Virus record (IMG/VR): IMGVR_UViG_2825527155_000001
DNA length: 64,000 bases
Reading direction: 5' to 3' (one strand)
Source: an uncultured virus (IMG/VR IMGVR_UViG_2825527155_000001)
Taxonomy: Duplodnaviria > Heunggongvirae > Uroviricota > Caudoviricetes
Both the position numbers and the translations under genes were made by a program. This document shows, piece after piece, positions 2,590 to 54,005 of this stretch; within the stretch, counting starts at the first letter, position 1; the number at the start of each line of letters is the position of its first letter. Under the pieces are notes generated by a model. It worked only from the letters and a program-made list of their open reading frames with translations. It had not been told where the DNA came from and did not search any database.

Positions 2590-2603
2590 CTTAATTAACC
2601 TTT

Positions 2604-5304: not shown

Positions 5305-5317
5305 TCATATTGAGCTC

Positions 5318-5839: not shown

Positions 5840-5851
5840 ACTTGCATCCCC

Positions 5852-8432: not shown

Positions 8433-8443
8433 TTTAACCCACC

Positions 8444-10880: not shown

Positions 10881-11871
10881 TTTCTTTACTGATTTAAATA
10901 ACTATATTAAACAAAATCCTATTGAATACATGCGTGATTTTGGTATTGAAATTCTGGAGAACAAGAGTCAACCATGCCCTATTTGTGGTGGGTCAGATAG
11001 ATTTAACTGGCGTAAAGCTGGTGACTATCCGCAGACAGGATATTGCCGAAAGGGATGTGGAATAAATGGCAGTAAGATATTACAGCCCCTTTATATAATA
11101 ACTCAAAAGACCAGCTTACCATATAAGGACATAGGCGCACGTATTGGATTTAATAAATCGGAAAAATGGACTAACCCGAATCATTTTTATATGCGCCCTA
11201 CGCCAAAACAGAAGAAACAGGAATTTAAACCTGCCGATTTAGATGATAAGAAACTTGAATTATTTACGCAAAGCATAAGCGAACACACGAAAAACGCCAC
11301 ATGGAAAGAATCACCTTACCTGCTAGCCAAAGGGATTAGAAAAATGATGTGGGTTGGCGGTCACGGTCAAACATTATTAGATTACTATCGCGCCGACAAT
11401 ACATTTTGCGCATTGCAACGACTGCCAGTAAGTGCCGATAAAACATTTATTAAAGATAGTCAATTGTCAGGAGCTTTTCACTGTGAGCGCAATCAGGATG
11501 GGAATATTGAAACAATATTTATTGGTGAAGGTTTTGGAACGGTTACGGCTTTTCAATACTCAATAAGTGAATTATATCCGGCATCATTATTTTTAACTGC
11601 CGGAAATAACAATAACTTACTGAACGTTGCCAAAGAAGCAAGAAGATATTACCCCAATGCTGATATATGCATTTTGACTGATAATGATAGTCATAAAGAT
11701 AGTACAGGCTTAAAAGCCACCGTAAAAACAATGTCGCAAGTAAATAAATGTTGGTGGGCTATGCCCGTAACTACTGGTGAGGATTGGTGTGATGTTTTTC
11801 AGCGCGGAAAAATTGCAGTGCGTGATGAGTTTCGAAGGGTTCTTACAGACCGCAAACCAACAATACAGTAA
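10873..11871 (+). CDS. DNA primase (Zn-binding + TOPRIM, P4 alpha/TraC-like)
   Basis: PCPICGGSDRF zinc motif; IGEGFGT and DND TOPRIM motifs; GEDWCD. Confidence 0.88.
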   Translation: MANFFTDLNNYIKQNPIEYMRDFGIEILENKSQPCPICGGSDRFNWRKAGDYPQTGYCRKGCGINGSKILQPLYIITQKTSLPYKDIGARIGFNKSEKWTNPNHFYMRPTPKQKKQEFKPADLDDKKLELFTQSISEHTKNATWKESPYLLAKGIRKMMWVGGHGQTLLDYYRADNTFCALQRLPVSADKTFIKDSQLSGAFHCERNQDGNIETIFIGEGFGTVTAFQYSISELYPASLFLTAGNNNNLLNVAKEARRYYPNADICILTDNDSHKDSTGLKATVKTMSQVNKCWWAMPVTTGEDWCDVFQRGKIAVRDEFRRVLTDRKPTIQ

Positions 11872-12322
11872 TAAATACAGATATTATAATTTTACTGATT
11901 TATTTTCTAAATTACACATTTATTGCTCGTTGCATGGGACTTATAAACGAATTGGTATATATCATATTTATGGTGATGAATGTCCGATTTGCCAGAACAA
12001 CAGGGAAAAAACTTATTTTAATTACATTATTCTTTGCGGAGGGATTATAAAGATCGGAAGGACAGCTAATGTTAATGCAAGATTAAGTGAACTGTCTTTC
12101 AGGCTAGGAATAGGATGTACGCTGTATTCACTATTTTCCTACCCTTCCAGACAAATAGCCTGCATTGCCGAAAAGAAAGCACATGAAATTTTAAAGCCTT
12201 ATCAAACATTACCTTTTAATTTAAAATTTGGCGGTTCATCAGAATTTTTTAATGTAGAACCATCAATAGCATTAAGCGCATTAGCATTTACAGGAGGGGA
12301 TATTATATATCAACATTATTAG
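11825..12322 (+). CDS. GIY-YIG/T5orf172-like nuclease with N-terminal Zn motif
   Basis: CSLHG...H...CPIC motif then IKIGRT..V..RL..L, E...H, GGSSEFF; start uncertain (11777 or 11825). Confidence 0.7.
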   Translation: MSFEGFLQTANQQYSNKYRYYNFTDLFSKLHIYCSLHGTYKRIGIYHIYGDECPICQNNREKTYFNYIILCGGIIKIGRTANVNARLSELSFRLGIGCTLYSLFSYPSRQIACIAEKKAHEILKPYQTLPFNLKFGGSSEFFNVEPSIALSALAFTGGDIIYQHY

Positions 12323-12354
12323 ATTAATGCCCCTTACGGGGCTGCGCTTCGCGC

Positions 12355-12438
12355 TGGTGAGGTAGAGAAAAAGCGGGTTCAAAACCAACCTTCTTTTTAC
12401 CCCACCAGCTCCGCAGGGGCGTGAGCGAAGCGAACAAT
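12355..12438 (-). repeat. Satellite repeat copy 3 (inverted)
   Basis: Reverse complement matches 5318-5401 with few mismatches. Confidence 0.9.
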
Positions 12439-12439
12439 A

Positions 12440-13792
12440 TTACTTCAACAATGCCAAGTTAATTTTATTAATAACTAAAAATAAATGTTCTATATCGTCT
12501 AAGTTTTTATTTTTAGCCAGATAAATTTTACGCCCCGTATCTTTAAAGGCGTGACCTGTTATCTGGTCAATATGTGTTGTATTTATATTTTCATATTTGC
12601 TTGCGCGTGTTTCGAATGAATGGCGGAAAGAGTGAAACGTTAAATTATCTTCTAACGCTTCTGGGATAATCTTTTTTATGGTTTTATTTACTTCTTTACC
12701 AAGTGTATCCTTAGTGAAATACTTGTAATCTTCATTCCTGCAAGTACGAAACAACGATAAATCTAACTTAAACCACTTAGGGAAATCACCAAGCGGAATA
12801 AGGCGTTCACTTGCTGAATTTTTTACCGCACCATGAATATAAATACCTTTGGGTGCGCCATTTGCATCACATAAAAAATCTTCCTTAGCTAAATCTTGTA
12901 GTTCAGCTATACGCGCTCCTGTAAACATACCTAATACAATTAGTTGTTGAACCAGACTTTCACCATCATCACCATAAGTCCTTCTCTTACTGTTGTTGCA
13001 ACTAAATCCCGCATGAATTAAATCAAGGATTCTATGACACTGTTCATTCGTGAAAGTCCCTCTCTTGTCATTATCTGAACGTTTATCTTTAAATTTAATA
13101 TCTATTGCTCTATTCTCATTTATTATCCCTTTTACTTGCAGCCATTTAAAAAACGCAATTATTTTACTAAGTCTAAGATTTACCGTTGCTTTTAATGTAT
13201 CTTCACTTTTACTTTTCCCTGCTTTTAATTTATCCTTGAAATATGTTTCTCGCATTTCAATAAAATCACCATGCGTCATTGAAGCTAAGTTTTTATCTAT
13301 TAAATAAAATGATAATTCATTATAAGTTGTTTGATTTGTTTCTTCCGTACCTTTTGTCCATTCACCAGAGCTAATTTTTTCTTTTTGATATTTAGGAAAC
13401 CAGTCCTTAAAAAATATCGCGTTATCTGTTTTCGCTTGATTAATAACGATAGTTTGCAATAAATCCCGCATGGTTATTTCTTCAGATTTTTCACAATCAA
13501 TAAGACTGAATATTAATTGTTTAATCTTGAATCGATATTCAGATATACTTTCTGCTTTTAGTTGTCGTTGCAAATTAAAACCAATTTTTACCATTTTTAA
13601 CATTTTTTGAGCGGTCATTAAATCTGTACATCTTTTCAACGAAACTATCACATCACTGTATTTTTTAGAGTGAATTTTCAGAATTTGCGAAGGAAGTTGT
13701 ACCCTGACGCTGTAAGTGTTTCCACGGCGTTTAAGTGATGGATTTGGAAGGGGAAATTTAGGTACAATTTTAGGTACATCGTTTTTCCGCAT
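12440..13792 (-). CDS. Tyrosine recombinase / integrase
   Basis: TGARIAE (R), VKN (K), FHSFRH (HxxR), ITGH and Y catalytic pattern. Confidence 0.93.
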   Translation of the reverse strand: MRKNDVPKIVPKFPLPNPSLKRRGNTYSVRVQLPSQILKIHSKKYSDVIVSLKRCTDLMTAQKMLKMVKIGFNLQRQLKAESISEYRFKIKQLIFSLIDCEKSEEITMRDLLQTIVINQAKTDNAIFFKDWFPKYQKEKISSGEWTKGTEETNQTTYNELSFYLIDKNLASMTHGDFIEMRETYFKDKLKAGKSKSEDTLKATVNLRLSKIIAFFKWLQVKGIINENRAIDIKFKDKRSDNDKRGTFTNEQCHRILDLIHAGFSCNNSKRRTYGDDGESLVQQLIVLGMFTGARIAELQDLAKEDFLCDANGAPKGIYIHGAVKNSASERLIPLGDFPKWFKLDLSLFRTCRNEDYKYFTKDTLGKEVNKTIKKIIPEALEDNLTFHSFRHSFETRASKYENINTTHIDQITGHAFKDTGRKIYLAKNKNLDDIEHLFLVINKINLALLK

Positions 13793-13898
13793 CTTTTCGC
13801 AGCCCTTTGATTTTTAATCTTTTTGACTGCACCCATTGCATACCGACGTAATTCACGGAAGAATGCGCACGACGGTTTATTAAACACAGTGGATTGAT

Positions 13899-14912
13899 AT
13901 GAAGGTACTGGTTACCGGCGCCACCAGCGGCTTAGGTCGAAACGCGGTTGAATTTTTGCGCAATAAAGGCATCAGCGTCAGAGCGACGGGTCGCAATGAA
14001 GCGATGGGCAAGCTGCTTGAAAAAATGGGCGCGGAGTTCGTCCATGCGGATTTAACCGAACTGGTCTCCTCGCAGGCTAAAGTGATGCTCGCCGGGATCG
14101 ACACGTTGTGGCACTGCTCCAGCTTTACCTCGCCCTGGGGAACCCAACAAGCTTTCGATCTGGCGAATGTTCGCGCCACCCGCCGCCTGGGAGAATGGGC
14201 GGTCGCCTGGGGCGTGCGCAATTTTATTCATATCTCCTCTCCCTCACTCTATTTTGATTACCACCATCACCGTGATATCAAAGAAGATTTCCGTCCGCAT
14301 CGGTTTGCCAATGAGTTCGCCCGCAGTAAAGCCGCCGGTGAAGAGGTGATTAATCTGCTGGCGCAGGCTAATCCGCAAACACGTTTTACGGTGTTGCGTC
14401 CGCAAAGCCTGTTTGGCCCGCACGATAAAGTATTTATCCCACGTCTGGCGCATATGATGCACCATTACGGTAGCGTCTTATTACCGCACGGGGGCAGCGC
14501 GCTGGTCGATATGACCTACTATGAAAATGCGATCCACGCCATGTGGCTGGCCAGCCAGCCGGGCTGCGATCATCTGCCTTCTGGCCGCGCTTATAACATC
14601 ACTAACGGCGAAAACCGCACCTTACGCAGCATCGTACAAAAGTTAATAGATGAACTGACTATCGACTGCCGCATTCGCTCTGTGCCTTACCCGATGCTGG
14701 ATATGATCGCCCGCAGTATGGAGCGCTTCGGCAAAAAATCCGCCAAAGAGCCCCCGCTAACGCATTACGGCGTGTCAAAACTGAATTTTGATTTTACGCT
14801 CGATACGACTCGCGCGCAGGAAGAGCTGGGCTACCAGCCCATCGTCACGCTGGACGAAGGCATTGAACGCACCGCCGCCTGGCTACGCGATCACGGAAAT
14901 TTACCGCGTTAA
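13899..14912 (+). CDS. ybjS: NAD(P)-dependent oxidoreductase/epimerase YbjS
   Basis: [11 protein letters not shown]ossmann motif; synteny with amiD and ybjQ. Confidence 0.9.
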
Positions 14913-15739
14913 TCCTGGCCGTACTTCTCCAGTAATGCTTCGGCAATCGCCTGCGTTTCGGCATCTGCGATACCGTTCCATTGCGCCGGACGGAAGTGCA
15001 TCTGGAACGCCATAATCACCCGCTGCTGCTCGCGTGTCGTCATATCGGCTTTGACTTCATAACCATAGCGCGAGAGTAACGCAAGCACCGTTGCGGTATC
15101 GACTGGCGTATACGGCGCGCGTCCAGCCAGATAAAACGCCACACGCTGGGCGTCAGGCCAGGCGCCAATCCCCTGCGCCGCCAGCTCGCGCCACGGGAAG
15201 CGCGGGCCGGGATCGTCTTTACGCTGCGGCGCGATATCCGCATGGGCCACCACATTCTGCGGTTTGATGTCATAGCGCGCGATAATGTCCTTCGCTAACG
15301 GAATCAATGCCTGAATTTGCGCGGATTCAAACGGCGCGAAAGATTTCACCCCGCCGGACATTCGCCAGCCGCGATTTTCCAGCTCAATGCCAATAGACGT
15401 ATCATTGAGACGCGTGGCGCCTCGCCAGAAACTGGCGCCCGCATGCCAGGCCTGATCCTGTTCCGGCACCAGTTGCCAGATGCGCGGTTTACCGCCATAT
15501 AATGGCGGGGTTGCGGGAATCAGGTAATGCGAACTGACGTTGCGACCCGTTAACGTCGCCAGCGAAACGTCAAAGTTTTCCGCCGTATAGTGAATCACCA
15601 GAACTTTAATGCGCGGATAGGCCGCCTGCGCCCGATGTCGGGTATCAAGCTGATATCCCTCTTTATCGATAATTCCTTTTTCGCTCGCGCAGCCTGTTAA
15701 CAGCAACGCGAGACCCACCAGCCACAGTAGCGCTCTCAT
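14909..15739 (-). CDS. amiD: N-acetylmuramoyl-L-alanine amidase lipoprotein AmiD
   Basis: Lipobox [31 protein letters not shown] amidase motifs. Confidence 0.93.
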
Positions 15740-16059
15740 CGGCGCGTTTTCACCGCCGTTCCGCTGACGCTGACCATCAGCATACTGCCATCCTTGCCGA
15801 CAGTTTCGTAATCAATATCGATGCCTACCACCGCATCGGCGCCCAACGCTTTAGCCTGCTCGCCAAGTTCCTGGAAAGCGATTTCACGCGCTTTACGCAG
15901 CTCTTTCTCATACGCGCCGGAACGTCCGCCGACGATATCCCGAATGCCGGCGAAAAAATCGCGGAAAATATTGGCGCCTAAAATGGCTTCGCCCGTCACC
16001 ACACCGCAATACTCCACGATGCTTTGTCCTTCCAGCGTTGGGGTTGTTGAAAACTGCAT
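15736..16059 (-). CDS. ybjQ: UPF0145 heavy-metal-binding domain protein YbjQ
   Basis: [29 protein letters not shown] signature. Confidence 0.93.
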
Positions 16060-16252
16060 AGTGAATCTCCCGGGTTAGCTAAGCACACGATCTCAAACGC
16101 ATTATCAAGCTGATACGCTATCATTGAAAGGACGTGATTGTATAATTTTCAAAATCACTAAAGATCGTCCAAGAGCACATGATTTTTCAGTGAGTTACAA
16201 AGGTTTCATTTCGGTACTATATAAACTTTACCGAATTTTATACGTTCTTTTT

Positions 16253-16373: not shown

Positions 16374-16590
16374 ATGTTTGTGGAACTCGTTTACGACAAA
16401 CGCAATGTAGGGGGGTTACCCGCCGCAAAAAACATCATTCTTAACGAGCTGACTAGGCGTGTACACTGGATCTTTCCCGATGCAGGCTAACGCCTTAAAC
16501 GGCAATTACACTAAAACAGAGAAAAAGCGGCTAAACCGCATGCTGGAGGAAATGTCTGAAGAGGCTGATATGTGGCTAACTTCAGATTAA
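16374..16590 (+). pseudogene. DinI/MsgA-like protein, frameshifted by an internal deletion
   Basis: MFVELVYDKRNV...IILNELTRRVH.IFPDA then stop; C-terminal MQANALN...MLEEMSEEADMWL is in another frame. Confidence 0.8.
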
Positions 16591-16752
16591 GCGCTTTGAA
16601 ACTTCATATTATGCTAATACATTTCTTAATAGCCCAGATTTTAGTAAAATCTCAAACCAGTCGCAGCGCGCTCCTGCATACGGCGCGCTGCGGCTCTATA
16701 AATAGACCACTCACACCATTTTCACATCCAGCAAACAACCAGTATCAGCATA

Positions 16753-16840
16753 TTGACATTCACACAAAACCGTTGCCAGAGTACCCAAGCTAGTTATGAC
16801 AATGGCCAATATTCATACCGTTAGCATTTATTGTGACAAG
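16753..16840 (+). repeat. Array promoter unit (TTGACA-N10-ACCGTT-N2-CAGAGT), direct repeat of 18517-18600
   Basis: First 32 bp identical to 18517-18548; similarity continues about 50 bp further. Confidence 0.85.
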
Positions 16841-17012
16841 ATTTCCTCACAGTTTGGGAAACTTTTACAGTGAGAACGAAGATAGTTGTAGTTGGATTGC
16901 AGTTTCGTTATTATTTAATAAGTATTCATTTAAAAGCCTAATCTAAATCAAATTTTCTTATAAACATATTAATAAAATTAGTTAACGAAAGAAATCAGTA
17001 AAATTTCATATC

Positions 17013-18325
17013 ATGAGAAAACCAAGTTCCATATCAACAATCGCCTTTTTATTATTCATATTATTTGTTACGTTATTCATTGTTCTTCCTGATAAGAATC
17101 ATACATTTATAAAGCTTACCCCTAGTGTAAATCATCAAATTTTACTCGTCGCCTTATTTTTCATAAATATAATTATATCCATCTTCATGTTTATGTCATT
17201 CATCATAAATAAAAAAGATAATTCTGTCTTTCTTCTCGGCCTGTCATTTTTTAGTGGGTTAGTCTACTTCACTGAAACAATTTTCATTATACAAAAAACC
17301 GCAAATGAATTTACTGAAATACAAACAAACTCAGAGCGAATCGCTGTCTTCTATTTTTTCAGACAATTAAATTTTGTGCTATTATTATCCCTTGCTGTAT
17401 ATATATCAAATAACAAGCCTGATTTAAAAAACGCTTTCAAGGATAACATTACCCTTATTTTAGGTATAGTAACAACTATCAGCCTACCTTTAATCACATA
17501 TTATGTATGCAACTCTCAATATTATTTATTTCTCAAAAATAACTTTCTGATTAAAAACGAATTGGAATGGGAAATTGTATGTATAAAATCAGTCATTGCA
17601 TTATGGTCACTGCTGCTTTTATCTGTTACATTAAGAAAAGTAAAATTAGAACATAAGTTTTATACTTATATCTCTTTATTATGTCTCACCAGTATCTTAT
17701 GTAATATCATTTTACTTACATTTAATGAGGCTAAATATCCTGTATGGTTCATTAGTCGAGGGATAGAGGTAATGATGAAATTATTCATAGTTTCATTGAT
17801 GATGTTTGAAAGCCTTAAAAACCTAAGACATTCTAATATAATGGCTTTTAATGATGAACTAACAAACCTACATAACAGACGATACTTTTTCAAAGAATAT
17901 CATTCTTTACTTGAAGATAATAATATAAAACAAATATGCATAATTATTATCGATATTGATCATTTTAAAAAATAAATGACACCTGGGGACATAAAACAGG
18001 TGATATTGTTATTAAAAACACAGCCAACATCATAAAGGAGAATATTCGCCCTGACGATATTCTTGCTCGCTTAGGTGGTGAAGAGTTCATTATATTATTA
18101 TACAATTTGAATATTAGTGCAGCCAGAAAAATTGCAGAACGAATTAGGGAAAATGTTGAAGCCTCTGTAAATAATACAATTACAGTTCCAATAACCGTTA
18201 GTGTTGGTCTTTGTTTGTTACCAAAACTGGATTGTTTTCAGCTAGATATAATCTCCTTAGCAGATCAAGCTTTATACAAAGCCAAAAATTCCGGGCGAAA
18301 CCAAATATGTGTTTATCAGAAATAA
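17013..18325 (+). pseudogene. Membrane diguanylate cyclase (MASE4-like + GGDEF), frameshifted at an A6 run
   Basis: Multi-TM N-terminus; DELTNLHNRR, DIDHFKK then a -1 shift at 17967-17972 restores INDTWGH...RPDD...RLGGEEF...ADQALYKAKNSGRN. Confidence 0.85.
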
Positions 18326-18362
18326 TGGTATAAAAATTCACCCCCATAAAATTTTTCTTCTA

Positions 18363-18752
18363 TTGACATCTTACAGTTACCGTTATCAGTATCACCTGCG
18401 TCGGGTTCTCCATCATCCTGACGACACGGTGCAGTCCGGGATGCATTAATCCGCATCTGGCATAGGGTCCGGACTGCACCATCCTCGCAGTGGCATGCCC
18501 CCTTACAACCTCCCGTTTGACATTCACACAAAACCGTTGCCAGAGTACAGAAACTGGCTTTGGCTATGGTCAGCATTCATTTCGTTAGCGTTTGTTGTGT
18601 TGAAACTAAAAATCCCCGTTCCGCTCAGTCCGGGGATTTTTTTGCCTGCCATTGACACAAGGTGTTTACCGTTAGCAGTATTTTTCTGTTAGGTTGGTCA
18701 TGACACAATCCAGTTTCATTCGATATTAATTGATTTGCATCATCCTAACCTG
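18363..18752 (+). ncRNA. Promoter/hairpin array block 1 (promoters at 18363, 18517, 18652; hairpins H1, H2; terminator 18608-18643)
   Basis: Repeated motifs shared with the 20090 and 23270 blocks; RNA status inferred from stem covariation. Confidence 0.6.
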
Positions 18753-18797
18753 GTAGTCATGGCTCTGTTCTCAACCCACTGACATAAAGAAACTAAA

Positions 18798-20069
18798 ATG
18801 AATGATTCCATTTATAAAAAAATAAGATGGCAAATTATTGTAACCACGTTTTTAACATACACAGTAATGTATATATCCAGAAAGGCCTTTGCTGCCGCAG
18901 CCCCACTTTTAATGCATGATGTTGGGATGACTGCTGTGCAATTTGGGACAGCATCATCTATTTATTACATACTTTATGGCGTATCAAAATTTGGTTCTGG
19001 ATTACTGGCTGACAGAATTAATCCTCGGGTATTTTTGGCTCCGGTATTATTGGTCATTGCGATGATCAATGTTGGCATCGGTATGTGCAATAACGTTACT
19101 ATCCTGCTAACATTATATTGCTTTACTGCAATTGCTCAAGGATGTGGTTTCCCTCCCATAGCCAAGGCAATCAGCCAGTGGTACTCAAAATCAGAAAGAG
19201 GGGGATGGTATTCATTATGGAACACTTCGCACAATGTTGGCGGCGCGCTTGCACCGCTCATCGCATCAGCCGTTATTACTTATACTGGTAACTGGAGATA
19301 TGCTTTTTTCGTTCCAGCATTTATTACATTAGTACAAGCCATCATTTCCGCCATTTTCATGCGCGATAAACCAGAAAAATACGGGCTACCTAATGTTGGC
19401 GTTTGGAAAAATGACAAAAAACAGCTTGAGCTAAATAAACGTTCCGAAGCCGGACTTACCATTTGGAAAATGTTTTGCACTTATATTTTAAATAACCCAA
19501 TAATCTGGATAGCAATCTGTGGAGATTTATGTATATATGTTATTCGAACAGTAACCGATGACTGGGTAAGTGTCTACTTTGTAAAAGCATTGGGCTGGGA
19601 TTTAATTAAATCAAACTCACTTGTTGCATGGTTTGAAGTTGGGGGGATTTTAGGTGGATTAACATCAGGAATAATATCTGATAAGTTTTTTCATGCTGAC
19701 AGATGGGTAACCATTTTGATTTATACTATAGTTTTATTGCTTGGAATGGGAAGTGTAATTTTAACAATTAATATTCATTATTACTTGGTCGCTATATCTT
19801 TTTTTATTATTGGTGCCGGAATTTATGCCCCCCAGATGTTATTTGCATTAGGCGTCATTGAAGCATCACACACTGATGGGGCCGGTGCTGCAACAGGACT
19901 GAAAGGTGGTGTAACTTACGTTGGAGCAGCACTCGCTGGGGCACCTATCGCTATGATCCAAAAATATTACTCATGGGATGGTGTTTTTGGACTACTCGGG
20001 ATAATCGCAGTAATATTGATTATACTGACTGCTAGCCTCATTCTTATAGAAAAAAGAATCCGGAATTGA
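18798..20069 (+). CDS. MFS transporter, UhpC/GlpT/PgtP organophosphate family
   Basis: YISRK, ERGGWYSLWNTSHNVGG, RDKPEKYGLP motifs; about 12 TM segments. Confidence 0.88.
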   Translation: MNDSIYKKIRWQIIVTTFLTYTVMYISRKAFAAAAPLLMHDVGMTAVQFGTASSIYYILYGVSKFGSGLLADRINPRVFLAPVLLVIAMINVGIGMCNNVTILLTLYCFTAIAQGCGFPPIAKAISQWYSKSERGGWYSLWNTSHNVGGALAPLIASAVITYTGNWRYAFFVPAFITLVQAIISAIFMRDKPEKYGLPNVGVWKNDKKQLELNKRSEAGLTIWKMFCTYILNNPIIWIAICGDLCIYVIRTVTDDWVSVYFVKALGWDLIKSNSLVAWFEVGGILGGLTSGIISDKFFHADRWVTILIYTIVLLLGMGSVILTINIHYYLVAISFFIIGAGIYAPQMLFALGVIEASHTDGAGAATGLKGGVTYVGAALAGAPIAMIQKYYSWDGVFGLLGIIAVILIILTASLILIEKRIRN

Positions 20070-20089
20070 TCTCATTTTTTCGCTAGGCA

Positions 20090-20690
20090 TTGACATCTTA
20101 CAGTTACCGTTATCAAAATCAGTTGCGTCAGGTTTTCCATCAGCTTGGCATGGTGCAGTCCGGGGATGCATTAATCCGCATATGGCATAGGGTCCGGACT
20201 GCACCAACTCTATGGTGGTGTTTCTGTCCTTTATCATCCTCTGTGATAGTGGTACTGGCGCTCCGGGTACAGAAATACCACCACCCTCCCTGTTGGTTTA
20301 GTGGTCCGACTGAATGCGGATTTCCTCGTTGTCATGCTGAAGTATTAATGTTCCTTTGCTGTATATTTTTACGTTGTTTCCGCCACTGGTTGGCGGTTTT
20401 TTTTACCCGTCATTGACACCAGGTATTTACCGTTGGCAGTATTCGTTGTGTCAGGTTCATATGCTATGTCCTGGCATGATGCAGTCCAATGGCGCAGGGA
20501 TTTGAACCAGGGATGGACGGACTGCATCACCACCAATGATGGTGTTTCTGTCTTTATCATCCTCTGTGATAGTGGTGTAAGTGCTCCGGGTACAGAAACA
20601 TCACTGGCCTAACTGTTTTAATGGTGCCGATTGATTGCAAGAAATTTTTGTTGTCAAAATAACTAGTCGCTGAATTAACATTCCTTTGTC
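20090..20690 (+). ncRNA. Promoter/hairpin array block 2 (H1-H2-H3, terminator-ended unit, H1-H2-H3, degenerate promoter)
   Basis: Promoter motifs at 20090, 20413 and 20631; hairpins 20152-20205, 20213-20283, 20477-20529, 20540-20603; terminator 20380-20404. Confidence 0.65.
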
Positions 20691-20712
20691 AATACTGCTT
20701 ATGGTTTATAAA

Positions 20713-22254
20713 ATGAAACAAAAACAACATGGCGTTATACTTATCATGATACTGATGATAATTACATATCTTATTAATAAAGTTGTGTTTGACAAAGACT
20801 CCTCTATTCCATTTCTTTCCACCTTGTCTTTTTTATTAATTTCTTTTTATTTATTAAGATGTAGAAACCTGACGCCACGCATTATTGGTTGCATTCTCAT
20901 TTTTTTACTGTCATCCGAGATTTCTTATTTCATCGTTTTCAGGGAACAGATATCTTTTGATATTATCAGCTCTATTGTGGAAACAAATCTTATCGAAACA
21001 AAAGGAATATTTTTAAGTGATGGTGTTAAAATTTTAGGAATAACGATTTTATTAACCTTAGTTATTACTTACGGGGTAAATAGATTTTATAAAAATCAGT
21101 TTTTTTTCAAATGGATTCCGAAAGCTGTAATTCTCTTATACACACTAGTTGCAATCCTTATAGTTAAGAATTTTTTACCGGAAAAAGATTATATTAAAGC
21201 GGGTATACAAGAATCACGCTCTACAATAGGCAAGCTGATTAAAAGTTACTTCCCCACCGTTATAGGTGACGTGGCATATTTTGCCAGTACAATGCTATTA
21301 AATGACCGCTATTCTAACACATCAATAATACCAGACTTCAACAAAGCTATAATCGGCAAAGAAGACAACGGTACTAATACTATTGTTATCGTAATGGGAG
21401 AATCTTCGCTATTTTCAAGGTACAGTATTTACGGGTATCCTAAGCCGACAAATCCAGAGTTACAAAAAATATTCACATACTCCCAATCATGCCTTGTCAA
21501 AAACGTTCATTCCAGTGCCCCTGATACGAGAGATTCTCTTGCAATGACATTCTCATTCAGTACACCAGAAAGCGATACCAACCTATTCAAGAATAAATCC
21601 ATTATAGAAATGGCAAAAGCTAATGGGTATAAAACCTGGTGGATTGGTTCTCAGGAACTTGAGGGATTATTCAGCTCAAAATATGGGTTTATTGCAAGGA
21701 AAAGCGACATTGTCAGACTGACAAATGGACATGATGAACATCTGGTACCAATGCTGACTGACGCGCTGGAAGATACGTCTGCCCCTAAAAAATTTATAAT
21801 AGTTCACCTGCTTGGCAACCATAAGCCTTACCATAACTACGATGCAGAAGATAAGGAAGCATTACCCGGAGCTGAAGAATACGATTTAACTATTCATAAA
21901 ACAGACAGAGTTGTTTCTTCATTATTCAATGATGTAGCAAAACACAGCGATAACTATATATTCCTCTATACCTCAGATCACGGAGAAGTGGTAAATAAAG
22001 GCCATGGACTTATGAAAGGCAAGGATCAATGGTACATACCTTTTCTGTACAAATCTACCAATAACAAATTTGGTTGTTCGTTCATTGAACAATTCAGAAA
22101 CAAGGATGGATGGCTGAGTAGTCTTATGAATAAATATATCCTTTCACGTCTCATTGGTTATACGCTTGATAAAAAAATTGTTAATAGCGAAATGAATAAC
22201 GACAGAGTGAAGGCAGCAAATGAAAAATCTGTCTTATTTAAAGATACAGAGTAA
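20713..22254 (+). CDS. Phosphoethanolamine transferase (sulfatase/alkaline phosphatase superfamily, OpgE/CptA-like)
   Basis: N-terminal TM segments; VIVMGES, catalytic Thr region PDTRDS, HLLGNH, YTSDHGE; start could be 20701. Confidence 0.85.
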   Translation: MKQKQHGVILIMILMIITYLINKVVFDKDSSIPFLSTLSFLLISFYLLRCRNLTPRIIGCILIFLLSSEISYFIVFREQISFDIISSIVETNLIETKGIFLSDGVKILGITILLTLVITYGVNRFYKNQFFFKWIPKAVILLYTLVAILIVKNFLPEKDYIKAGIQESRSTIGKLIKSYFPTVIGDVAYFASTMLLNDRYSNTSIIPDFNKAIIGKEDNGTNTIVIVMGESSLFSRYSIYGYPKPTNPELQKIFTYSQSCLVKNVHSSAPDTRDSLAMTFSFSTPESDTNLFKNKSIIEMAKANGYKTWWIGSQELEGLFSSKYGFIARKSDIVRLTNGHDEHLVPMLTDALEDTSAPKKFIIVHLLGNHKPYHNYDAEDKEALPGAEEYDLTIHKTDRVVSSLFNDVAKHSDNYIFLYTSDHGEVVNKGHGLMKGKDQWYIPFLYKSTNNKFGCSFIEQFRNKDGWLSSLMNKYILSRLIGYTLDKKIVNSEMNNDRVKAANEKSVLFKDTE

Positions 22255-22276
22255 AAAATAAATTTTTCAGTTCTTA

Positions 22277-22310
22277 AAAGCCCGTCGTAATCTACATGCC
22301 GGGCTTTTTT
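22277..22310. terminator. Bidirectional intrinsic terminator
   Basis: AAAAGCCCG-N15-CGGGCTTTTTT between convergent genes. Confidence 0.7.
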
Positions 22311-22324
22311 ATAAATTAAAATAT

Positions 22325-23179
22325 TTATTTGTGCAGACATAACATTTTCATCCTGTGAGAAAAGGTACGAATCGTTCGCTTTCCCTTGCATTTGAATAAG
22401 TCAAACCACTTGTTTTTACCCAGATAGTTTAACTTGATCATGTCAGGCCTGTAATAATAACACATCAGAAATATTCCCTGATCATCATCCACAATATTCT
22501 CTCTCAACACCTTCTTTTGGCAATGCCACACCAGTCGGTAAAGTTCTTGCCACTTTTCCAGCGTTCCGATCAGAACGCCACCGATGATATACACATGGTT
22601 ACCTAACATACAGTTGTACACTGATTCCAGTGTTTCAAGTTTAAGCCCTCTTCTGATCGTAAAAAAATGCATTTTTTCCTTATTGAAGGGCCAGGACCAC
22701 TTTTTTATTCCACTAGTGGTATCAGAATCTCTACAATATCCAAAATCAATCCAGGCAGCCATATCGTCTTTGATCAACCTCTGCCTGATAGCCTGATTTA
22801 CAAAGTATGTTTTCAGATTACAGAGTAAAACGTAATCAGCCGACAGATATTCTGGATTCCCCCGCTGCTCTACGGGTGTTCGGAGCTTAAACGCTACATC
22901 CGACTGTACAGAAGCGATCCGGCGCCTGATATGACGAAATTTCTTATTGAAATTTAATGTAACAATTGTTGTTGGTTTTCCTCTCCGGATTTCCTCAATT
23001 CTGGGTTTGAGATCGGGTGAAGTAAAAATAACCATCTCATTTTCGAGTTCAGCAAGATTGAAAAACCAAGCCATATATTCATCAGTAGTCCGCTCAATAC
23101 GGGGGGCAAACCCATTTTGCGATGTCCATTGACTTCTGCCTATATCAAAATAAGCAGTTACAATCGTTATTGTGGTCAT
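22325..23179 (-). CDS. HtrL/YibB-family (WlaTC-like) glycosyltransferase-like protein
   Basis: TIVTAYFDIGR, AWIDFGYCR, DDDQG motifs. Confidence 0.8.
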   Translation of the reverse strand: MTTITIVTAYFDIGRSQWTSQNGFAPRIERTTDEYMAWFFNLAELENEMVIFTSPDLKPRIEEIRRGKPTTIVTLNFNKKFRHIRRRIASVQSDVAFKLRTPVEQRGNPEYLSADYVLLCNLKTYFVNQAIRQRLIKDDMAAWIDFGYCRDSDTTSGIKKWSWPFNKEKMHFFTIRRGLKLETLESVYNCMLGNHVYIIGGVLIGTLEKWQELYRLVWHCQKKVLRENIVDDDQGIFLMCYYYRPDMIKLNYLGKNKWFDLFKCKGKRTIRTFSHRMKMLCLHK

Positions 23180-23269
23180 ACCTCTTTAAAAAGACCTGTA
23201 AATTTAAAACAATAGCACATACTAACATGCAAAATGATTAATATAAATCCTTTGTAAAATTGATAAGAA

Positions 23270-23834
23270 TATTAGTTGTGTCAGGTTCTCCACCAACCTG
23301 GCTTGGTGGTGTTTCTGGTTCCCTTGCCGTCCTCTGTAAACAATGGTGCGCTCCGGGTGCAGAAACACCACCGCCACTACTGTGTGTGATTGACTAAGGT
23401 TGTTACCCGTTGTCAGACTGATCGATTAGTATTCCCTTGCTTTATACTCTTACGTTGTTTCCGCCGTTGGTTGGCGGATTTTTTTTGCCTGTTATTGACA
23501 CCCGGTGTTTACCGTTAGCAGTATTAGCCCTGTCAGGTTGACCATTATCCTGACACGATGCAGTCCGGTTGTGCTGAGGGTTTTAGTGTGACAGGGACGG
23601 ACTGCATCAACCCAATGGTGGTGTTTCTGCCTTTATCCTGCTCCTTATACAGATGGTTCCATTATTAGTGCGAGCGCAGAAATACCACCGCCAACAAGCC
23701 TTTTTCCGCAGGCTTGTAATCAACGAATCACCGTTGTTAAGCTCCTTTTGCATGTTTCAGACTTACGTCCGAAATTTTGCAGCATGTGTTTCAACTGATG
23801 CAGGCAGGTAAGGCAGTTTTGAAACACTTTTTTT
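23270..23834 (+). ncRNA. Promoter/hairpin array block 3 (H1-H3, terminator-ended unit, H1-H2-H3, further unit with terminator)
   Basis: Promoter motifs at 23390, 23495 and 23714; hairpins 23305-23372, 23531-23555, 23557-23608, 23617-23689; terminators 23461-23486 and 23786-23834. Confidence 0.65.
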
Positions 23835-23895
23835 GGCTGCTATGTGCTTCGACGGCTTTCCTGTATTGGCTACGTTGAAGCGCTTTTTTTTGTTG

Positions 23896-24468
23896 TCAGG
23901 CTACAGGGGCCTCCGGCCATTCAGGTTTTGACGTATCAACACGGTTTACCAGAACACGGTATTTCTTCCACGCATTAAGCCGGGCTTTTTCTTCGTCTGT
24001 CGCTTCTTCCAGGTCAACTGCATCCTGAAGGGGGGCTATTTTATCTGTCGCCAGTTGCAGAAGTCGTTTTTTAGTCTCCTCCGCTTCACGAAGCCGGGCG
24101 GCTTTTTCTGCCTCTTCGTCTTTCACCCATTTTGTACCGTCCCATTTTTCATACTGACCGTCCGGGGAAATGGTCGTCACGTTTTCCGGTAATGGCCCCA
24201 GTTCAGAAATCCAGACCGCCTCCCCGGTATCCGTTCTGTATACCGTCTGCCCCCGGTGGTCTTCGACGACGTTCCAGGTGTTTTTTTCGCTGTCAAACAC
24301 CGCGACACTTCCTGCCGGGATTTCCGGTGGCTCAATATCCGTACAGTGAGCCGGTAATCCGGTGTGCGGTGGGATATACGCATCGCCCGCGCCAATAAAT
24401 TCGTTAGTATCTGAACGCAGATTATAAATTTTAATTGTCTGCGCTTTATCGCTCATTTTAAACGTCAT
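23896..24468 (-). CDS. tfa: Tail fibre assembly protein (Tfa)
   Basis: [13 protein letters not shown]...[10 protein letters not shown]...[19 protein letters not shown], lambda Tfa family. Confidence 0.92.
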
Positions 24469-24482
24469 TTTTTCACTCCGGA

Positions 24483-25292
24483 TTAAACGAGAGAATGCGC
24501 GTGCGAGCATTCTGTATGAAGTGGATGCCCGTGTGCGCCGATTTCTACACCGTGAGCGTGAGCACCGATACGGATATCAGACTGATGGCGCGGGCTGATG
24601 CAGACGCCGCCTGATTTTTTGCAATACGTTCTGTAATCACCAAAACCGATATATTCCGTTCTGGCGTTCGGACAAAGCGTCTGTGGACAGTATGCCGTTG
24701 TGCTGAATACAGCATTCTGGCGGTCGCTGGCGTATTGCCAGTTAATTTCCGTGGCACAGTTAATAAAACCATCCCACGCCAGCCTCATTTGCCGGGCGAC
24801 GCTTTCAGGGGGAACCTGACCACATCCGGCCCCCATGGCAGGGAACACAACTGATTTTATTTTTTTATATTCCGCCACACTTTTATTGTGCTGAAATATT
24901 GCCAGTAACGCCGCCCGTGTTGCGTTATAAACCGCGTCAGTACCGTCAATAATCAACGGAACGCGCATCGTCGGGGCGTGAATCAGCCACGGATGTTCGC
25001 CGTCACCGGTCTCAGTGATAAAGGCTGTGCCGACAGGCTGCTCTCCGAGATATTCCTGAATAATATATTTCTGAACGCGTCTTTGTAACTGAGTGCCGAA
25101 ATATGTCGTTATAGCGGCATCCACGCCACCATCCATCAGGCCAAAGCTGTTGGCTGCGCTGACCATACAATCAAATTCCGGTATGGTTTCAAACGGTTCG
25201 GGGATAATTTCCACATTGTCGGTATTCTGAAAATAACATTCAAATGCCGCCGCCATTGCAGGTTCAGGAGCGGATAAAATTAATTTAATCAT
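24483..25292 (-). CDS. Macro-domain (ADP-ribose binding/hydrolase) protein
   Basis: [32 protein letters not shown] macrodomain motifs. Confidence 0.88.
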
Positions 25293-49247: not shown

Positions 49248-49928
49248 AGACGAACTCCTGAAAATAAAAAGCCCGGCAGCAACCAGTGCGCAGGGTAAGA
49301 GCGCGGTGGGTGTTACTGTCAGGCTTTGGGATTATGGACATAAAAAAGCCCCGACAAAATCGGGGCAAGGGAGTCATGTTGAAAACGATGAATTACCTGT
49401 GATGGAGTTGCGGTGCCGGGTGCCTCCCGGTAAGTACATGGACGACCAGCCAGTAACCTGCGTGAGTTCAACCGCTTTTTCCGCATTAAACGAAATGGTC
49501 GGTTTACGCCCCTCCGCTCAGGGGGATTCACCGCAACAGAACCGATGCTATTAACGGCAACTCCACTGAGTCAATATATGCCCTGTAACGCTGGGCCACC
49601 AGTACGGCATGTTATGTCCATCAGTTGGGTTCATACGTTGTATATCCGCACCTCTGCAATCGGTGCACCGTATGTTGTAAGGAAACAGGCTTCACGGGCT
49701 GGATTTATCAACAAAGCACGTAGTGAGTGATACCCGTGAGCCTGAATACGAAAAAGGCCACACAAATGCGCAGCCTTTATAACGAGAGTTTTATTATTCG
49801 AAGGCACTCCATCCAACAAACCACCCACGGTTATCAGGACTTTAACGGAGTGCTTTTGGATAAGCGCTGAACCCAAAGGTCAGTATTTTTACACAGCAAT
49901 TTTGCAAAAAGCAGCGCCCATTCAAAAA

Positions 49929-50003: not shown

Positions 50004-50007
50004 ATTA

Positions 50008-53660: not shown

Positions 53661-54005
53661 TTAGGCTAATATTGTTAATATCCCTTCAATAAAACCTAGC
53701 GCAGTCTGCAACTCCTTCCTTATCGTACCATCCGAGCACTTCCGCTTCTTCGCAATGGTCCGCAAAGAGATGCCAACAACGAAATGAGCTATGATCAACT
53801 CATATTCTTCCGGCTTATATTTCCGCAGGCGTGCCACACATCCATCAATCATGATACCTTCATCATCATCACATTGCAGGCGTGACTTTTTGCCATACGG
53901 TAGAAGCCCCTTAAATCCAGCCGCGATTGGCTGCCAGTCGACCCCACTACTATCTGCAGCAGCCCAGGCCCCCCAACGGTCCATAACATCATACATATCA
54001 CGCAT
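53661..54005 (-). CDS. Antitermination protein Q
   Basis: RWGAWAA...CDDDEG...GISLRTIAKKRKCSDG family pattern. Confidence 0.88.
   Translation of the reverse strand: MRDMYDVMDRWGAWAAADSSGVDWQPIAAGFKGLLPYGKKSRLQCDDDEGIMIDGCVARLRKYKPEEYELIIAHFVVGISLRTIAKKRKCSDGTIRKELQTALGFIEGILTILA

What the first reader, a model, noticed from the sequence alone, without database searches (positions are those of the whole stretch)
16753..23834. Prophage-borne array of modular structured RNAs interleaved with cargo genes
Seen: the intergenic DNA at 16753-16840, 18363-18752, 20090-20690 and 23270-23834 is built from a few reusable parts, all on the + strand and antisense to the late operon. The parts are a promoter motif, hairpin H1 (GTCAGG..CCTGAC; at 18400, 18688, 20127, 20450, 23280, 23532), hairpin H2 (GRTGCAGTCC..GGACTGCAYC; 4 copies), hairpin H3 (GGTGTTTCTG..CAGAAAYAYC; 4 copies) and intrinsic terminators. 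Units occur as H1-H2, H1-H2-H3, H1-H3 or H1 alone. Stems show compensatory changes (GGTGCAG/CTGCACC vs GATGCAG/CTGCATC; GTCAGG/CCTGAC vs GTTAGG/CCTAAC). Their G-U pairs work only on the + strand, and the loops vary. Inference: an expanded, diversifying family of phage small RNAs with a constant scaffold and variable loops, possibly guide-like, antisense or protein-decoy RNAs. I cannot match it to a named RNA family, and no Cas, reverse transcriptase or transposase gene is adjacent.
Basis: partly seen in the sequence, partly recalled or inferred. Interest (0 to 1): 0.92.

Follow-up and report, generated by a model that had tools for sequence, protein, structure and literature searches.

The report
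Prophage small-RNA gene family flanking cargo
The repeated blocks are real copies of an unnamed family of structured small-RNA genes at the far end of a Salmonella prophage, some of which now drive captured surface-modifying cargo genes; it is a new member of a known kind of element, and its function is untested.

Summary
The intergenic DNA at 16753-23834 consists of + strand units. Each has a promoter (TTGACA-N10-ACCGTT-NN-CAGTAT), a 5' hairpin H1, long hairpins H2 and H3, an AU-rich tail and an intrinsic terminator. Stems keep pairing through compensatory and G-U changes that work only on the + strand. Neither Rfam nor the E2348/69 PasA/B/C loci match.

The array lies beyond the end of the late operon, between the tail-fibre assembly gene and host ybjQ, and converges on that operon without overlapping it.

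The three + strand cargo genes are a broken MASE4-GGDEF gene, an MFS transporter and a sulfatase-family gene. Each sits directly behind a unit that lacks its terminator, so units act as promoter and leader donors. The other units are free-standing genes for RNAs of about 95-300 nt.

Two new links emerged. The array promoter recurs at the prophage's own STnc100 gene, between Q and the lysis genes. Distant H2 relatives occupy that same tRNA-to-holin slot, or sit before a transporter gene, in E. coli prophages and plasmids (440 of 5,426 genomes), unannotated.

My best reading is paralogous "late-leader-type" prophage sRNAs. I found no support for a guide-like role. There are no expression data, and the function is inferred.

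The parts
16753..16840 (+). Type-2 unit T2a: promoter TTGACATTCACACAAAACCGTTGCCAGAGTAC plus about 50 nt of conserved leader. It has no terminator and runs into the MASE4-GGDEF cargo.
   Evidence: 82% identical to 18517-18599. Promoter motif. Not significantly structured, z = -0.1.
17013..18325 (+). AT-rich cargo 1: a MASE4-GGDEF diguanylate-cyclase gene, broken into two frames (17013-17975 and 18107-18325).
   Evidence: Pfam MASE4 2.5e-29 and GGDEF halves in two ORFs. GC 0.26-0.34.
18363..18516 (+). Unit U1: promoter, H1 (18400-18422) and H2 (18428-18480). It has no H3 and no terminator of its own, and runs into T2b.
   Evidence: R1 48.5 bits. R2 78.4 bits. Fold z = -2.2.
18517..18645 (+). Type-2 unit T2b: promoter, U-rich stretch and a strong terminator (about 18608-18645). 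This is a free-standing sRNA-like gene of about 95 nt.
   Evidence: Fold z = -1.5. A copy exists in G002.
18652..18797 (+). Unit U2: promoter, H1 5' arm, decayed H2 and a closing helix GTTAGG/CCTAAC. It serves as the 5' leader of the MFS gene.
   Evidence: Alignment A1. Fold z = -0.85. Promoter motif.
18798..20069 (+). Cargo 2: MFS transporter.
   Evidence: Pfam MFS_1 1.1e-46.
20090..20405 (+). Unit U3: promoter, H1, H2, H3, AU-rich tail and terminator (20380-20396 plus T8). This is a free-standing RNA gene of about 285 nt.
   Evidence: R1 162.6 bits. Fold z = -3.1. Terminator.
20413..20713 (+). Unit U4: promoter, H1, H2 (loop type B), H3 and tail. It has no terminator and serves as the roughly 265-nt leader of the sulfatase-family gene.
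   Evidence: R1 151.9 bits. 87% identical to the free-standing G002b unit.
20714..22254 (+). Cargo 3: sulfatase-family membrane enzyme (phosphoethanolamine-transferase-like architecture). A hairpin terminator follows at 22276-22310.
   Evidence: Pfam Sulfatase 5.4e-31, ORF listed from 20686. Terminator read.
22325..23179 (-). Cargo 4: HtrL/YibB-family gene, on the opposite strand. Its insertion has cut the -35 region of unit U5.
   Evidence: Pfam HtrL_YibB 1.4e-76. Sequence.
23270..23486 (+). Unit U5: remnant -10, H1, H3 (H2 deleted), tail and terminator (23460-23478 plus T8).
   Evidence: R1 69.5 bits. Tail 81% identical to U3. Terminator.
23495..23830 (+). Unit U6: promoter, H1, H2 (loop type C), H3, three small hairpins and a terminator (about 23788-23826). 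This is an RNA gene of about 300 nt facing the 3' end of the tail-fibre assembly gene. It is the most widely shared version (G003, Salmonella plasmids).
   Evidence: R1 160.1 bits. Fold z = -4.85. Plasmid and G003 copies.
23896..24510 (-). Tail-fibre assembly gene, the last gene of the late operon, convergent with the array.
   Evidence: Pfam Caudo_TAP 2.4e-40, PHROG 105.
49336..49574 (-). STnc100 sRNA gene of the same prophage, between the tRNAs and the holin. Its promoter, TTGACT-N10-GCCGTT-AA-TAGCAT, has the array's architecture.
   Evidence: Rfam RF02076 74.5 bits. Motif hit at 49553-49574. Alignment A4.
53661..54005 (-). Q-type late antiterminator gene of the prophage.
   Evidence: Pfam Phage_antitermQ 1.2e-45.

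Best explanation
The blocks are paralogous, independently transcribed non-coding RNA genes on the + strand.

Anatomy. Each has a sigma-70-type promoter (TTGACA, 18-nt spacer with a fixed ACCGTT, CAGTAT). The transcript starts with a short 5' hairpin (H1). A 12-bp H2 and a 13-14-bp H3 follow, each with a large irregular loop, then an AU-rich tail and an intrinsic terminator with a 7-8 U run. Predicted RNAs are about 95-300 nt.

Kinship. The units belong to the same kind of element as the short 'late-leader' RNAs that lambdoid prophages make between Q/tRNAs and the lysis genes, the slot held by STnc100/PasD. They share this prophage's STnc100 promoter. Their H2 hairpin has distant homologues in that slot in E. 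coli prophages.

Position and cargo capture. In this prophage the genes sit at the distal end, after the tail-fibre genes. AT-rich lysogenic-conversion genes have been captured inside or behind units, replacing the terminator. The unit's promoter and structured leader then drive the cargo. Recombination and deletion among units produced the H1-H2, H1-H3 and H1-H2-H3 mosaics.

Function. In the lysogen the free-standing units should give stable small RNAs. By analogy with STnc100/PasD these most likely act in trans as Hfq-type base-pairing regulators.

Shown versus inferred. Shown: the anatomy, strand-specific structural conservation, the promoter sharing, the cargo arrangement and the relatives. 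Inferred: transcription, promoter strength and the trans-acting role.
For: Repeats and motif statistics:
-. The motif TTGAC-N9-TTRCCGTT gives 6 hits: 5 array promoters plus the STnc100 promoter, against 0.00 expected.

Structure:
- RNAalifold finds 47 pairs.
- On 11 model-aligned copies 89.1% of cells pair, against 85.1% shuffled and 33-50% in slid registers. 12 pairs have changes on both sides, and 0 of 500 shuffles reach that.
- The H2 helix over 14 sequences has 160 of 168 cells paired. Pairs 1, 2, 7, 9, 10 and 11 change on both sides. There are 20 G-U against 3 A-C.
- The S. bongori plasmid copy keeps H3 through G-C to A-U and U-A to C-G. It keeps the terminator stem through AA/UU to GG/CC (by reading).

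Terminators.

Cargo:
- 3 of 3 + strand cargo genes lie directly behind a unit that lacks a terminator.
- Cargo GC is 0.25-0.42, against 0.47-0.53 in the units.
- U4, which is fused to cargo, is 87% identical to a free-standing unit with a terminator in G002.

Relatives in the late-leader slot:
- L321 has tRNA, the RNA with a CCGCC..GGCGG-T7 terminator, then holins.
- E. coli loci have tRNA-Thr/Gly, the RNA, then holin/lysis genes. On plasmids the order is tRNA, the RNA, then a DMT transporter.

Precedent: STnc100/PasD are Hfq-associated prophage sRNAs near Q and the holin (bioRxiv 10.64898/2026.05.13.724894, sections 12, 15 and 17 read; PMC8550237, passages read).
Against: - There are no expression data. 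No RNA run was listed as holding the stretch, and 4 laid runs gave 0 reads, which is no test.
- The -10 hexamer is weak (3 of 6), and the consensus scan lists only one of the promoters.
- The complement of U3 also folds better than shuffles.
- Type-2 units and U2 are not significantly structured.
- The sequences are paralogues and the alignments were fitted to the model, so the shuffle counts are not probabilities.
- Copies on two S. enterica plasmids carry uncompensated changes (L094: 4 A-C and 5 other of 47 pairs). This shows the element can decay.
- Full units are rare: 2 of 79 loci with a related tail-fibre assembly gene. None were found in the phage collection or in 5,426 E. coli genomes by blastn.
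- No target and no Hfq binding has been shown.
Confidence: 0.5

Rival explanations
1. The units are portable late-promoter cassettes of the lambda PR'/qut plus tR' kind. In the lysogen they make a short terminated RNA. On induction the prophage's Q protein loads at the shared promoter element and RNA polymerase reads through the unit terminators into the cargo, or collides with late transcription leaving the prophage.
For: - The array promoters share the -35, the spacing, the spacer element (AGTT-R-CCGTTA) and the first transcribed bases (GTTGCG) with the promoter of STnc100. That gene lies between Q and the lysis genes of this prophage.
- The layout of promoter, roughly 200-300-nt RNA, terminator, then gene(s) mirrors a late leader.
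- H2 relatives sit in the tRNA-to-holin slot.
- In lambda the Q-binding element lies in the PR' spacer (recalled, not from a call).
Against: - Of 80 loci whose Q is at least 87% identical, only 1 has the promoter motif, and that one is the same prophage. The motif is therefore not a conserved Q-binding element of this Q family.
- It is not shown that the STnc100 promoter is the late promoter.
- The array points towards the late operon, so read-through would make antisense RNA to the tail genes.
- Three cargo genes have no terminator to read through.
Confidence: 0.15
2. The units are mostly non-functional leftovers. They are duplicated pieces of a promoter and leader that were carried along when morons were shuffled by recombination between prophages, and they have no RNA-level function of their own.
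For: - Forms are mosaic and truncated (U1, U2, U5). G002b is a hybrid of a U4-like 5' part and a U3-like 3' part.
- Copies on plasmids have decayed.
- Distribution is narrow.
- U2 and the type-2 units lack significant structure.
Against: - Stem changes are biased to those that keep + strand pairing: 29 G-U against 9 A-C, and 20 against 3 in H2.
- Double compensatory changes link Salmonella and E. coli versions that are otherwise barely alignable.
- Loop subtypes A and B co-occur in the same order in two prophages with unrelated tail-fibre assembly genes.
Confidence: 0.15
3. The units are cis-acting leader RNAs that protect or license expression of AT-rich foreign cargo. Two routes are possible. 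A put-like RNA could bind RNA polymerase and suppress Rho-dependent or intrinsic termination. Alternatively, the 5' hairpin could simply stabilise the mRNA.
For: - H1 and H2 start at the predicted 5' end, as putL lies just downstream of PL and has two stem-loops (PMC9378689, passages read).
- Cargo is AT-rich.
- Units precede 3 of 3 + strand cargo genes, an acetyltransferase in G003 and a DMT transporter on E. coli plasmids.
Against: - At least half of the units have no gene behind them and end in strong terminators.
- The G003 cargo has its own TATAAT promoter after the unit's terminator (by reading).
- The size and shape differ from the roughly 70-nt put RNA.
- No put sequence was compared.
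Confidence: 0.1
4. One reading: a diversifying array of guide-like or decoy RNAs with a constant scaffold and programmable loops, for example for defence or counter-defence.
For: - The H2 loops fall into four unrelated sequence types on a conserved stem.
- The location is a prophage cargo hot-spot.
Against: - No effector gene (Cas, reverse transcriptase, nuclease, transposase) lies nearby.
- No complementarity beyond chance to the 64-kb window was found.
- Loop types are shared between prophages rather than unique.
- Conserved G-rich motifs sit inside the 'variable' loops (CUGGCAGGG).
Confidence: 0.03

Closest known systems
STnc100 (Rfam RF02076) / PasD, and StxS (the last recalled from memory): short RNAs made in lysogens from the region between Q and the lysis genes of lambdoid prophages, acting as Hfq-bound sRNAs
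   Same: - The layout is the same: a presumably constitutive promoter, a structured RNA of about 100-300 nt and an intrinsic terminator with a U-run, carried on a prophage.
- The window's own STnc100 has the array's promoter architecture.
- H2-type relatives occupy the same tRNA-to-holin slot.
- There is an association with LPS-modifying cargo. The preprint reports LpxR near PasD (section 15).
   Different: - Beyond the promoter and first bases there is no sequence or covariance-model similarity. Rfam STnc100 does not hit the units.
- The units sit at the other end of the prophage.
- They are present in up to 8 copies and are interleaved with cargo.
- Neither expression nor Hfq binding has been shown.
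PasA, PasB, PasC sRNAs of EPEC E2348/69 (PMC8550237; bioRxiv 10.64898/2026.05.13.724894)
   Same: They are multi-copy, prophage-borne sRNA families whose variants were generated by recombination, and they lie next to phage structural or lysis genes.
   Different: - Models R1 and R2 find nothing at the PasA, PasB or PasC loci; the best score is 9.5 bits.
- blastn of the units finds nothing in 5,426 E. coli genomes.
- Pas sRNAs are reported as restricted to Escherichia and Shigella.
Phage morons (promoter plus gene plus terminator inserted between phage genes; definition recalled from memory)
   Same: The sulfatase-family gene with the U4 promoter and the 22276-22310 terminator fits the definition. 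So do the MFS and GGDEF genes with their unit promoters. Their location after the tail-fibre genes and their AT-rich composition also fit.
   Different: All the morons here use copies of one promoter and leader family, which also exists as free-standing RNA genes.
HK022 put RNA (PMC9378689)
   Same: It is a promoter-proximal pair of stem-loops in a nascent phage transcript, and terminators lie downstream.
   Different: - put RNA is about 70 nt and acts only in cis on RNA polymerase.
- The units are longer and have a third hairpin and their own terminators.
Lambda PR'-6S RNA-tR' / qut module (recalled from memory)
   Same: It is a strong promoter whose short transcript ends at a terminator ahead of the genes, and it has a conserved element in the promoter spacer.
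   Different: - The array is not downstream of Q.
- It is convergent with the late operon.
- The spacer element is absent from 79 of 80 loci with a near-identical Q.

Membership tests
Any Rfam 15 family | Covariance-model score at or above the family's gathering threshold | tested here: not met
   At gathering thresholds the window has 4 hits, none in 16753-23834. At E up to 5 there are 5 weak hits in 16500-24100, none over a unit; IS009 lies inside the tail-fibre assembly gene. L321 and L335 have no sRNA family over the H2-type RNA.
STnc100 / PasD late-leader sRNAs | Sequence and structure match to RF02076 | tested here: not met
   RF02076 hits only 49336-49569. It does not hit the units, even at E up to 5.
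STnc100 / PasD late-leader sRNAs | Position between Q/tRNAs and the holin | tested here: not met
   The array units lie after the tail-fibre assembly gene. The feature is met only by the distant H2-type relatives.
STnc100 / PasD late-leader sRNAs | Shared promoter | tested here: met
   TTGAC-N9-TTRCCGTT has 6 hits: 5 array promoters and the STnc100 promoter at 49553-49574 (-), against 0.00 expected. Alignment A4.
Pas sRNAs (PasA/B/C) | Sequence or model similarity to the E2348/69 genes | tested here: not met
   R1 and R2 on L377-L379 give a best score of 9.5 bits, not over the sRNA. blastn finds no match in E. coli genomes. Coordinates were taken from table S3 of PMC8550237.
Hfq-dependent base-pairing sRNA | Intrinsic terminator with a U-run of at least 6, preceded by an AU-rich single-stranded stretch | tested here: met
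   U3, U5, T2b and U6 have terminators with 7-8 U. Folds show AU-rich unpaired tails.
Hfq-dependent base-pairing sRNA | Expression, Hfq binding, defined targets | not testable with these tools
   No RNA run holds the locus. The host genome is not held.
Lambda-type qut / PR' module | Q-binding element tied to the resident Q | tested here: inconclusive
   The spacer element is shared with the STnc100 promoter. It is present in only 1 of 80 loci with Q at least 87% identical.
HK022 put RNA | About 70 nt, two stem-loops next to the promoter; binds the RNA polymerase beta' zinc domain; suppresses downstream terminators | not tested
   Only the general layout was compared with the description in PMC9378689. 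No put sequence was fetched.
Integron attC / cassette array | IntI integrase and promoterless cassettes bounded by attC hairpins | tested here: not met
   There is no integron integrase. The nearest integrase (12440-13792) lies beyond the host genes ybjS/amiD/ybjQ. The units carry promoters and terminators.
Small-protein gene (YncL-like moron next to tfa, from earlier findings) | Conserved small ORF with a family match | tested here: not met
   6 small ORFs of U5 and U6 have no NCBIfam match at E up to 10. The 33-codon frame at 23777-23878 is not kept in the S. bongori copy, where the changes instead preserve the terminator stem (by reading).

The most novel reading that the evidence does not exclude
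The units are a mobile 'late-leader' control cassette, made of a shared promoter/qut-like element, a structured RNA and a terminator, that lambdoid prophages re-use outside the late region. In the lysogen each copy would release a distinct small regulator: the same scaffold with four different H2 loops. On induction the resident Q protein would read through the cassettes. That would switch surface-modifying cargo on, or block late transcription from running out of the prophage. The E. coli H2-type RNA, present in 8% of genomes and unannotated, would be the ancestral member of this unrecognised RNA family.
Probability: 0.15. Interest if true: 0.7.

Novelty: new member of a known kind. Interest (0 to 1): 0.45.

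Why it matters
Prophage-borne small RNAs such as STnc100/PasD and AgvB connect mobile elements to host regulation, but only a few families are known. This finding adds one more.

- It has structural covariation that spans Salmonella and E. coli.
- It is absent from Rfam.
- A distant relative sits unannotated in 440 of 5,426 complete E. coli genomes.

The Salmonella array also shows how one promoter and leader module can be re-used to express several captured genes: an MFS transporter, a sulfatase-family enzyme, a diguanylate cyclase, and an acetyltransferase in a relative. This bears on how prophages assemble lysogenic-conversion loci.

The promoter link to the STnc100 gene gives a directly testable question: are moron promoters derived from, and co-regulated with, the late-leader promoter?

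Tried and rejected
Searches for relatives:
- blastn of U3+U4 and of U5+U6 found no match in the phage collection or in E. coli genomes. T2a found none in plasmids.
- The promoter pattern in GTDB species genomes gave 12 stretches, all in unrelated taxa. I judged them chance from the organism names and did not scan them.
- The promoter pattern in metagenomes gave 0 stretches. The H3 pattern gave 13 stretches, in which R1 found only a 10.4-bit hit in L078.
- In viral contigs the H3 pattern gave 36 stretches. Only 4 loci (L012, L013, L034, L037, from G004, G002 and G003) carried further unit motifs.
- The promoter pattern gave 20 stretches in viral contigs, 5 of them from those same three contigs. 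The others were not scanned.
The 79 scanned with R1 gave no hit.
- The type-2 promoter string gave 3 stretches.
- R1's 19.6-bit hit in L305 lies in an iteron-like repeat and I rejected it.

Expression:
- No RNA holder was listed.
- Four 'same species label' RNA runs laid 0 reads, which is no test.

Other ideas tested or considered:
- Antisense targets. blastn-short of all units against the window found nothing beyond chance.
- Coding potential. Small frames (MVVFL... at the H3 5' arm, the 22-aa frame in the U3 tail, the 33-aa frame in the U6 tail) lack Shine-Dalgarno sequences. They are not frame-conserved between copies (by reading) and have no NCBIfam match.
- CsrA sponge, anti-Shine-Dalgarno mimic and loop-loop kissing between GGGAUG and CAUCC motifs. 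I considered these from the sequences only, could not test them, and do not claim them.
- tRNA-like fragment in the U4 H2 loop (GGATTTGAACC). I noted it and treated it as possibly chance.
- Integron-like cassette array. Rejected, because there is no IntI and the units have promoters and terminators.

Literature and earlier findings:
- Four unit strings searched in full text returned only unrelated papers.
- A keyword search found no description of such an array.
- Earlier findings of this scan had none for this genome or sequence.
- Supplements of the bioRxiv Pas preprint (its sequence alignments) could not be seen and might bear on whether the E. coli H2-type RNA has a name.

Not possible:
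- Searches of relatives or the genus with the genome search, because the window's assembly is not held.

Full report
**What is there**

The 7-kb stretch was read directly and the repeats were checked.

Eight + strand units are present. Six are "type 1":

| Unit | Coordinates |
|---|---|
| U1 | 18363-18516 |
| U2 | 18652-18797 |
| U3 | 20090-20405 |
| U4 | 20413-20713 |
| U5 | 23270-23486 |
| U6 | 23495-23830 |

Two are "type 2": T2a (16753-16840) and T2b (18517-18645).

All except U5 begin with TTGACA-N10-ACCGTT. With at most 1 mismatch that motif occurs 7 times in the window, all here, against 0.36 expected. U5 has lost its -35 region to the neighbouring HtrL gene.

A full unit, from the 5' end, contains:
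- H1, a 6-7-bp stem;
- H2, a 12-bp stem with a loop of about 30 nt;
- H3, a 13-14-bp stem with a branched loop;
- an AU-rich tail;
- an intrinsic terminator.

The scan lists terminators at 20380-20396, 23460-23478 and 18619-18635. U6 ends at a longer hairpin plus T7, about 23788-23826.

The consensus promoter scan lists only the 20090 promoter, because CAGTAT matches TATAAT at 3 of 6 positions. Promoter activity is therefore inferred from conservation and position, not shown.

**Structure and strand**

U3 and U6 fold better than shuffles, z = -3.1 and -4.85. The complement of U3 does too, z = -3.7.

The strand is decided by substitutions.
- RNAalifold on six full units gives 47 pairs.
- A covariance model built from them (R1) aligned 11 copies. 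In that alignment 89.1% of cells pair, against 85.1% after shuffling and 33-50% in slid registers. Twelve pairs change on both sides, and 0 of 500 shuffles reach that.
- Wobble pairs outnumber A-C mismatches by 46 to 24 over all rows, and by 29 to 9 in the five intact units.

The rows are paralogues and the alignment is model-fitted, so these figures are support and not probabilities.

U2 and the type-2 units are not significantly structured: z = -0.85, -1.5 and -0.1.

**Where it sits**

The prophage has lambdoid regulation and a contractile tail. On the - strand it carries, in order:
- a Q antiterminator (53661-54005);
- two tRNAs (49932-50083);
- STnc100 (49336-49569);
- holin, lysozyme and Rz;
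- terminase, portal and capsid genes;
- sheath, tube and baseplate genes;
- the tail fibre gene;
- a macro-domain protein;
- the tail-fibre assembly gene (23896-24510).

A CI-like repressor gene (58641-59336) lies on the + strand, upstream of Q.

On the other side of the array, 13832-16132 is host DNA. It encodes ybjS, amiD and ybjQ and is 80% identical to E. coli.

The array is therefore the distal cargo end of the prophage. It converges on the late operon but does not overlap it.

The cargo is AT-rich, GC 0.25-0.42, against 0.47-0.53 in the units. It comprises:
- a MASE4-GGDEF gene split into two frames;
- an MFS transporter;
- a sulfatase-family membrane enzyme;
- an HtrL/YibB gene on the - strand.

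Each of the three + strand cargo genes follows a unit that has no terminator: T2a, U2 and U4. The remaining units end in terminators.

**Relatives**

Full units are rare.

*Where full units were found*
- Pattern scans and R1 found them only in three places: a near-identical provirus (G001/G004), a second provirus (G002, 84-87% identical) and a third (G003).
  - In G002 there are two units and a type-2 unit, with no cargo, next to an unrelated tail-fibre assembly gene.
  - In G003 there is one unit upstream of a hexapeptide acetyltransferase gene, next to a 92%-identical tail-fibre assembly gene.
- Three Salmonella plasmids also carry copies.
  - Two S. enterica copies carry uncompensated changes.
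  - The S. bongori copy is diverged (25.8 bits). It keeps H3 and the terminator through double changes.

*How rare they are*
- Of 79 loci with a related tail-fibre assembly gene, 2 have units.
- The phage collection and 5,426 E. coli genomes have none by blastn.

U4, which is fused to cargo here, is the counterpart of a free-standing G002 unit that has a terminator. The free-standing RNA gene therefore looks like the older state and cargo fusion the derived one.

**Links to the late region**

*Shared promoter.* The promoter of this prophage's STnc100 gene is TTGACT-N10-GCCGTT-AA-TAGCAT, followed by ..GTTGCG. This is the same architecture as the array promoters. TTGAC-N9-TTRCCGTT has 6 hits in the window: 5 array promoters plus this one, against 0.00 expected.

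*H2-type relatives.* Among 80 loci with a Q protein at least 87% identical, R1 gave a weak hit in L335. blastn then found its relative in L321.

These RNAs lie between the tRNAs and the holins. Their terminator is like that of U3 and U5. Their H2 hairpin keeps 12 of 12 pairs, with three double compensatory changes relative to the array units.

A second model (R2) found no further members among the 80 loci.

The L321-type RNA occurs in 440 of 5,426 complete E. coli genomes and in two phage records, unannotated. Five diverse E. coli copies were fetched.
- Three lie after tRNA genes and before lysis or other cargo genes.
- Two lie on plasmids, between a tRNA-like gene and a DMT transporter gene.

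Over 14 forward-strand sequences, 7 of the Salmonella type and 7 of the E. coli type:
- the H2 helix has 140 Watson-Crick and 20 G-U cells out of 168;
- it has 3 A-C cells;
- both-side changes occur at pairs 1, 2, 7, 9, 10 and 11.

This is the strongest evidence that H2 is a selected RNA structure.

**Comparison with known families**

- Rfam gives no match over the units or over the L321-type RNA.
- The PasA, PasB and PasC loci of E2348/69 do not match R1 or R2. Coordinates came from table S3 of PMC8550237.
- STnc100/PasD are described as Hfq-associated prophage sRNAs near Q and the holin/lysozyme genes (preprint 10.64898/2026.05.13.724894, sections 12, 15 and 17 read; PMC8550237, passages read).
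- The units resemble that kind in layout, and here also in promoter, but they are not members by sequence or model.
- HK022 put RNA (PMC9378689, passages read) was compared only by description.

**Mechanism**

I favour, at about 0.5, paralogous late-leader-type sRNA genes that also serve as promoter and leader donors for captured cargo. The free RNAs would act in trans.

The late-cassette rival (Q-dependent read-through, 0.15) is attractive because of the shared promoter. It is weakened by two facts. Only 1 of 80 loci with a near-identical Q has the promoter motif. The array also points into the late operon.

The other rivals are non-functional relics (0.15), a cis antitermination or stabilising leader (0.1) and guide-like RNAs (0.03).

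**Limits**

- There are no expression data.
- The host genome is not held.
- Few independent full-length homologues are available.
- Promoter strength, RNA ends, partners and targets are all inferred.

Noticed in passing
window 49336-49574 (-): The STnc100 gene of this prophage carries a promoter of the same architecture as the array promoters. In 7 other loci with the STnc100 core, the sequence upstream of the core is different in each. The promoter therefore looks like a swappable module.
   Followed up: partly
L321 8866-9160; L335 5270-5490; L380-L384: An unannotated structured RNA of about 300 nt lies between phage tRNA genes and the holin in 440 of 5,426 complete E. coli genomes. On two plasmids it sits directly before a DMT transporter gene. 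It has no Rfam match. Its 3' part contains a GGGAGGCACCCG stretch like that in STnc100.
   Followed up: partly
window 5851-5939 (-) and 2600-13800: A C4 antisense RNA (RF01695, 65.8 bits) lies beside an HTH_35 protein, a DUF3987/primase-like gene and an integrase (12440-13792) that abuts host ybjS. This is a separate satellite-like or prophage-remnant element on the other side of the 2.3-kb host segment.
   Followed up: no
window 50380-53640 (+): Three genes (DUF6037, an unknown 519-aa protein and a D12 adenine methylase) are inserted on the opposite strand between Q and the tRNAs. At the same place L321 has a KwaB-like (Kiwa) gene and a methylase, which suggests a defence or cargo hot-spot.
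   Followed up: no
window 17013-18325 (+): The MASE4-GGDEF cargo gene is interrupted. The GGDEF domain is split between the ORF that ends at 17975 and a second frame at 18107-18325.
   Followed up: no
window 24483-25292 (-): A macro-domain protein gene sits between the tail fibre and tail-fibre assembly genes, as annotated in Gifsy-1 and the SEN phages.
   Followed up: no
L094 and L095 (S. enterica plasmids): The U6-type unit and a fragment of the tail-fibre assembly gene have been carried onto conjugative IncF-type plasmids. They lie among IS elements, about 4 kb from a cluster annotated as cytolethal distending toxin B family. The RNA copy there shows uncompensated stem changes.
   Followed up: partly
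window 23777-23878 (+): A 33-codon frame with a hydrophobic C-terminus spans the U6 terminator. It is longer (ATG start) in G003 and the plasmids, but out of frame in the S. bongori copy. It has no NCBIfam match and is probably not a gene.
   Followed up: yes
window 20490-20510 (+): The H2 loop of U4, and of G002b, contains GGCGCAGGGATTTGAACC. This resembles the reverse complement of a tRNA T-arm and acceptor end. It may be a relic of an att site or may be chance.
   Followed up: no
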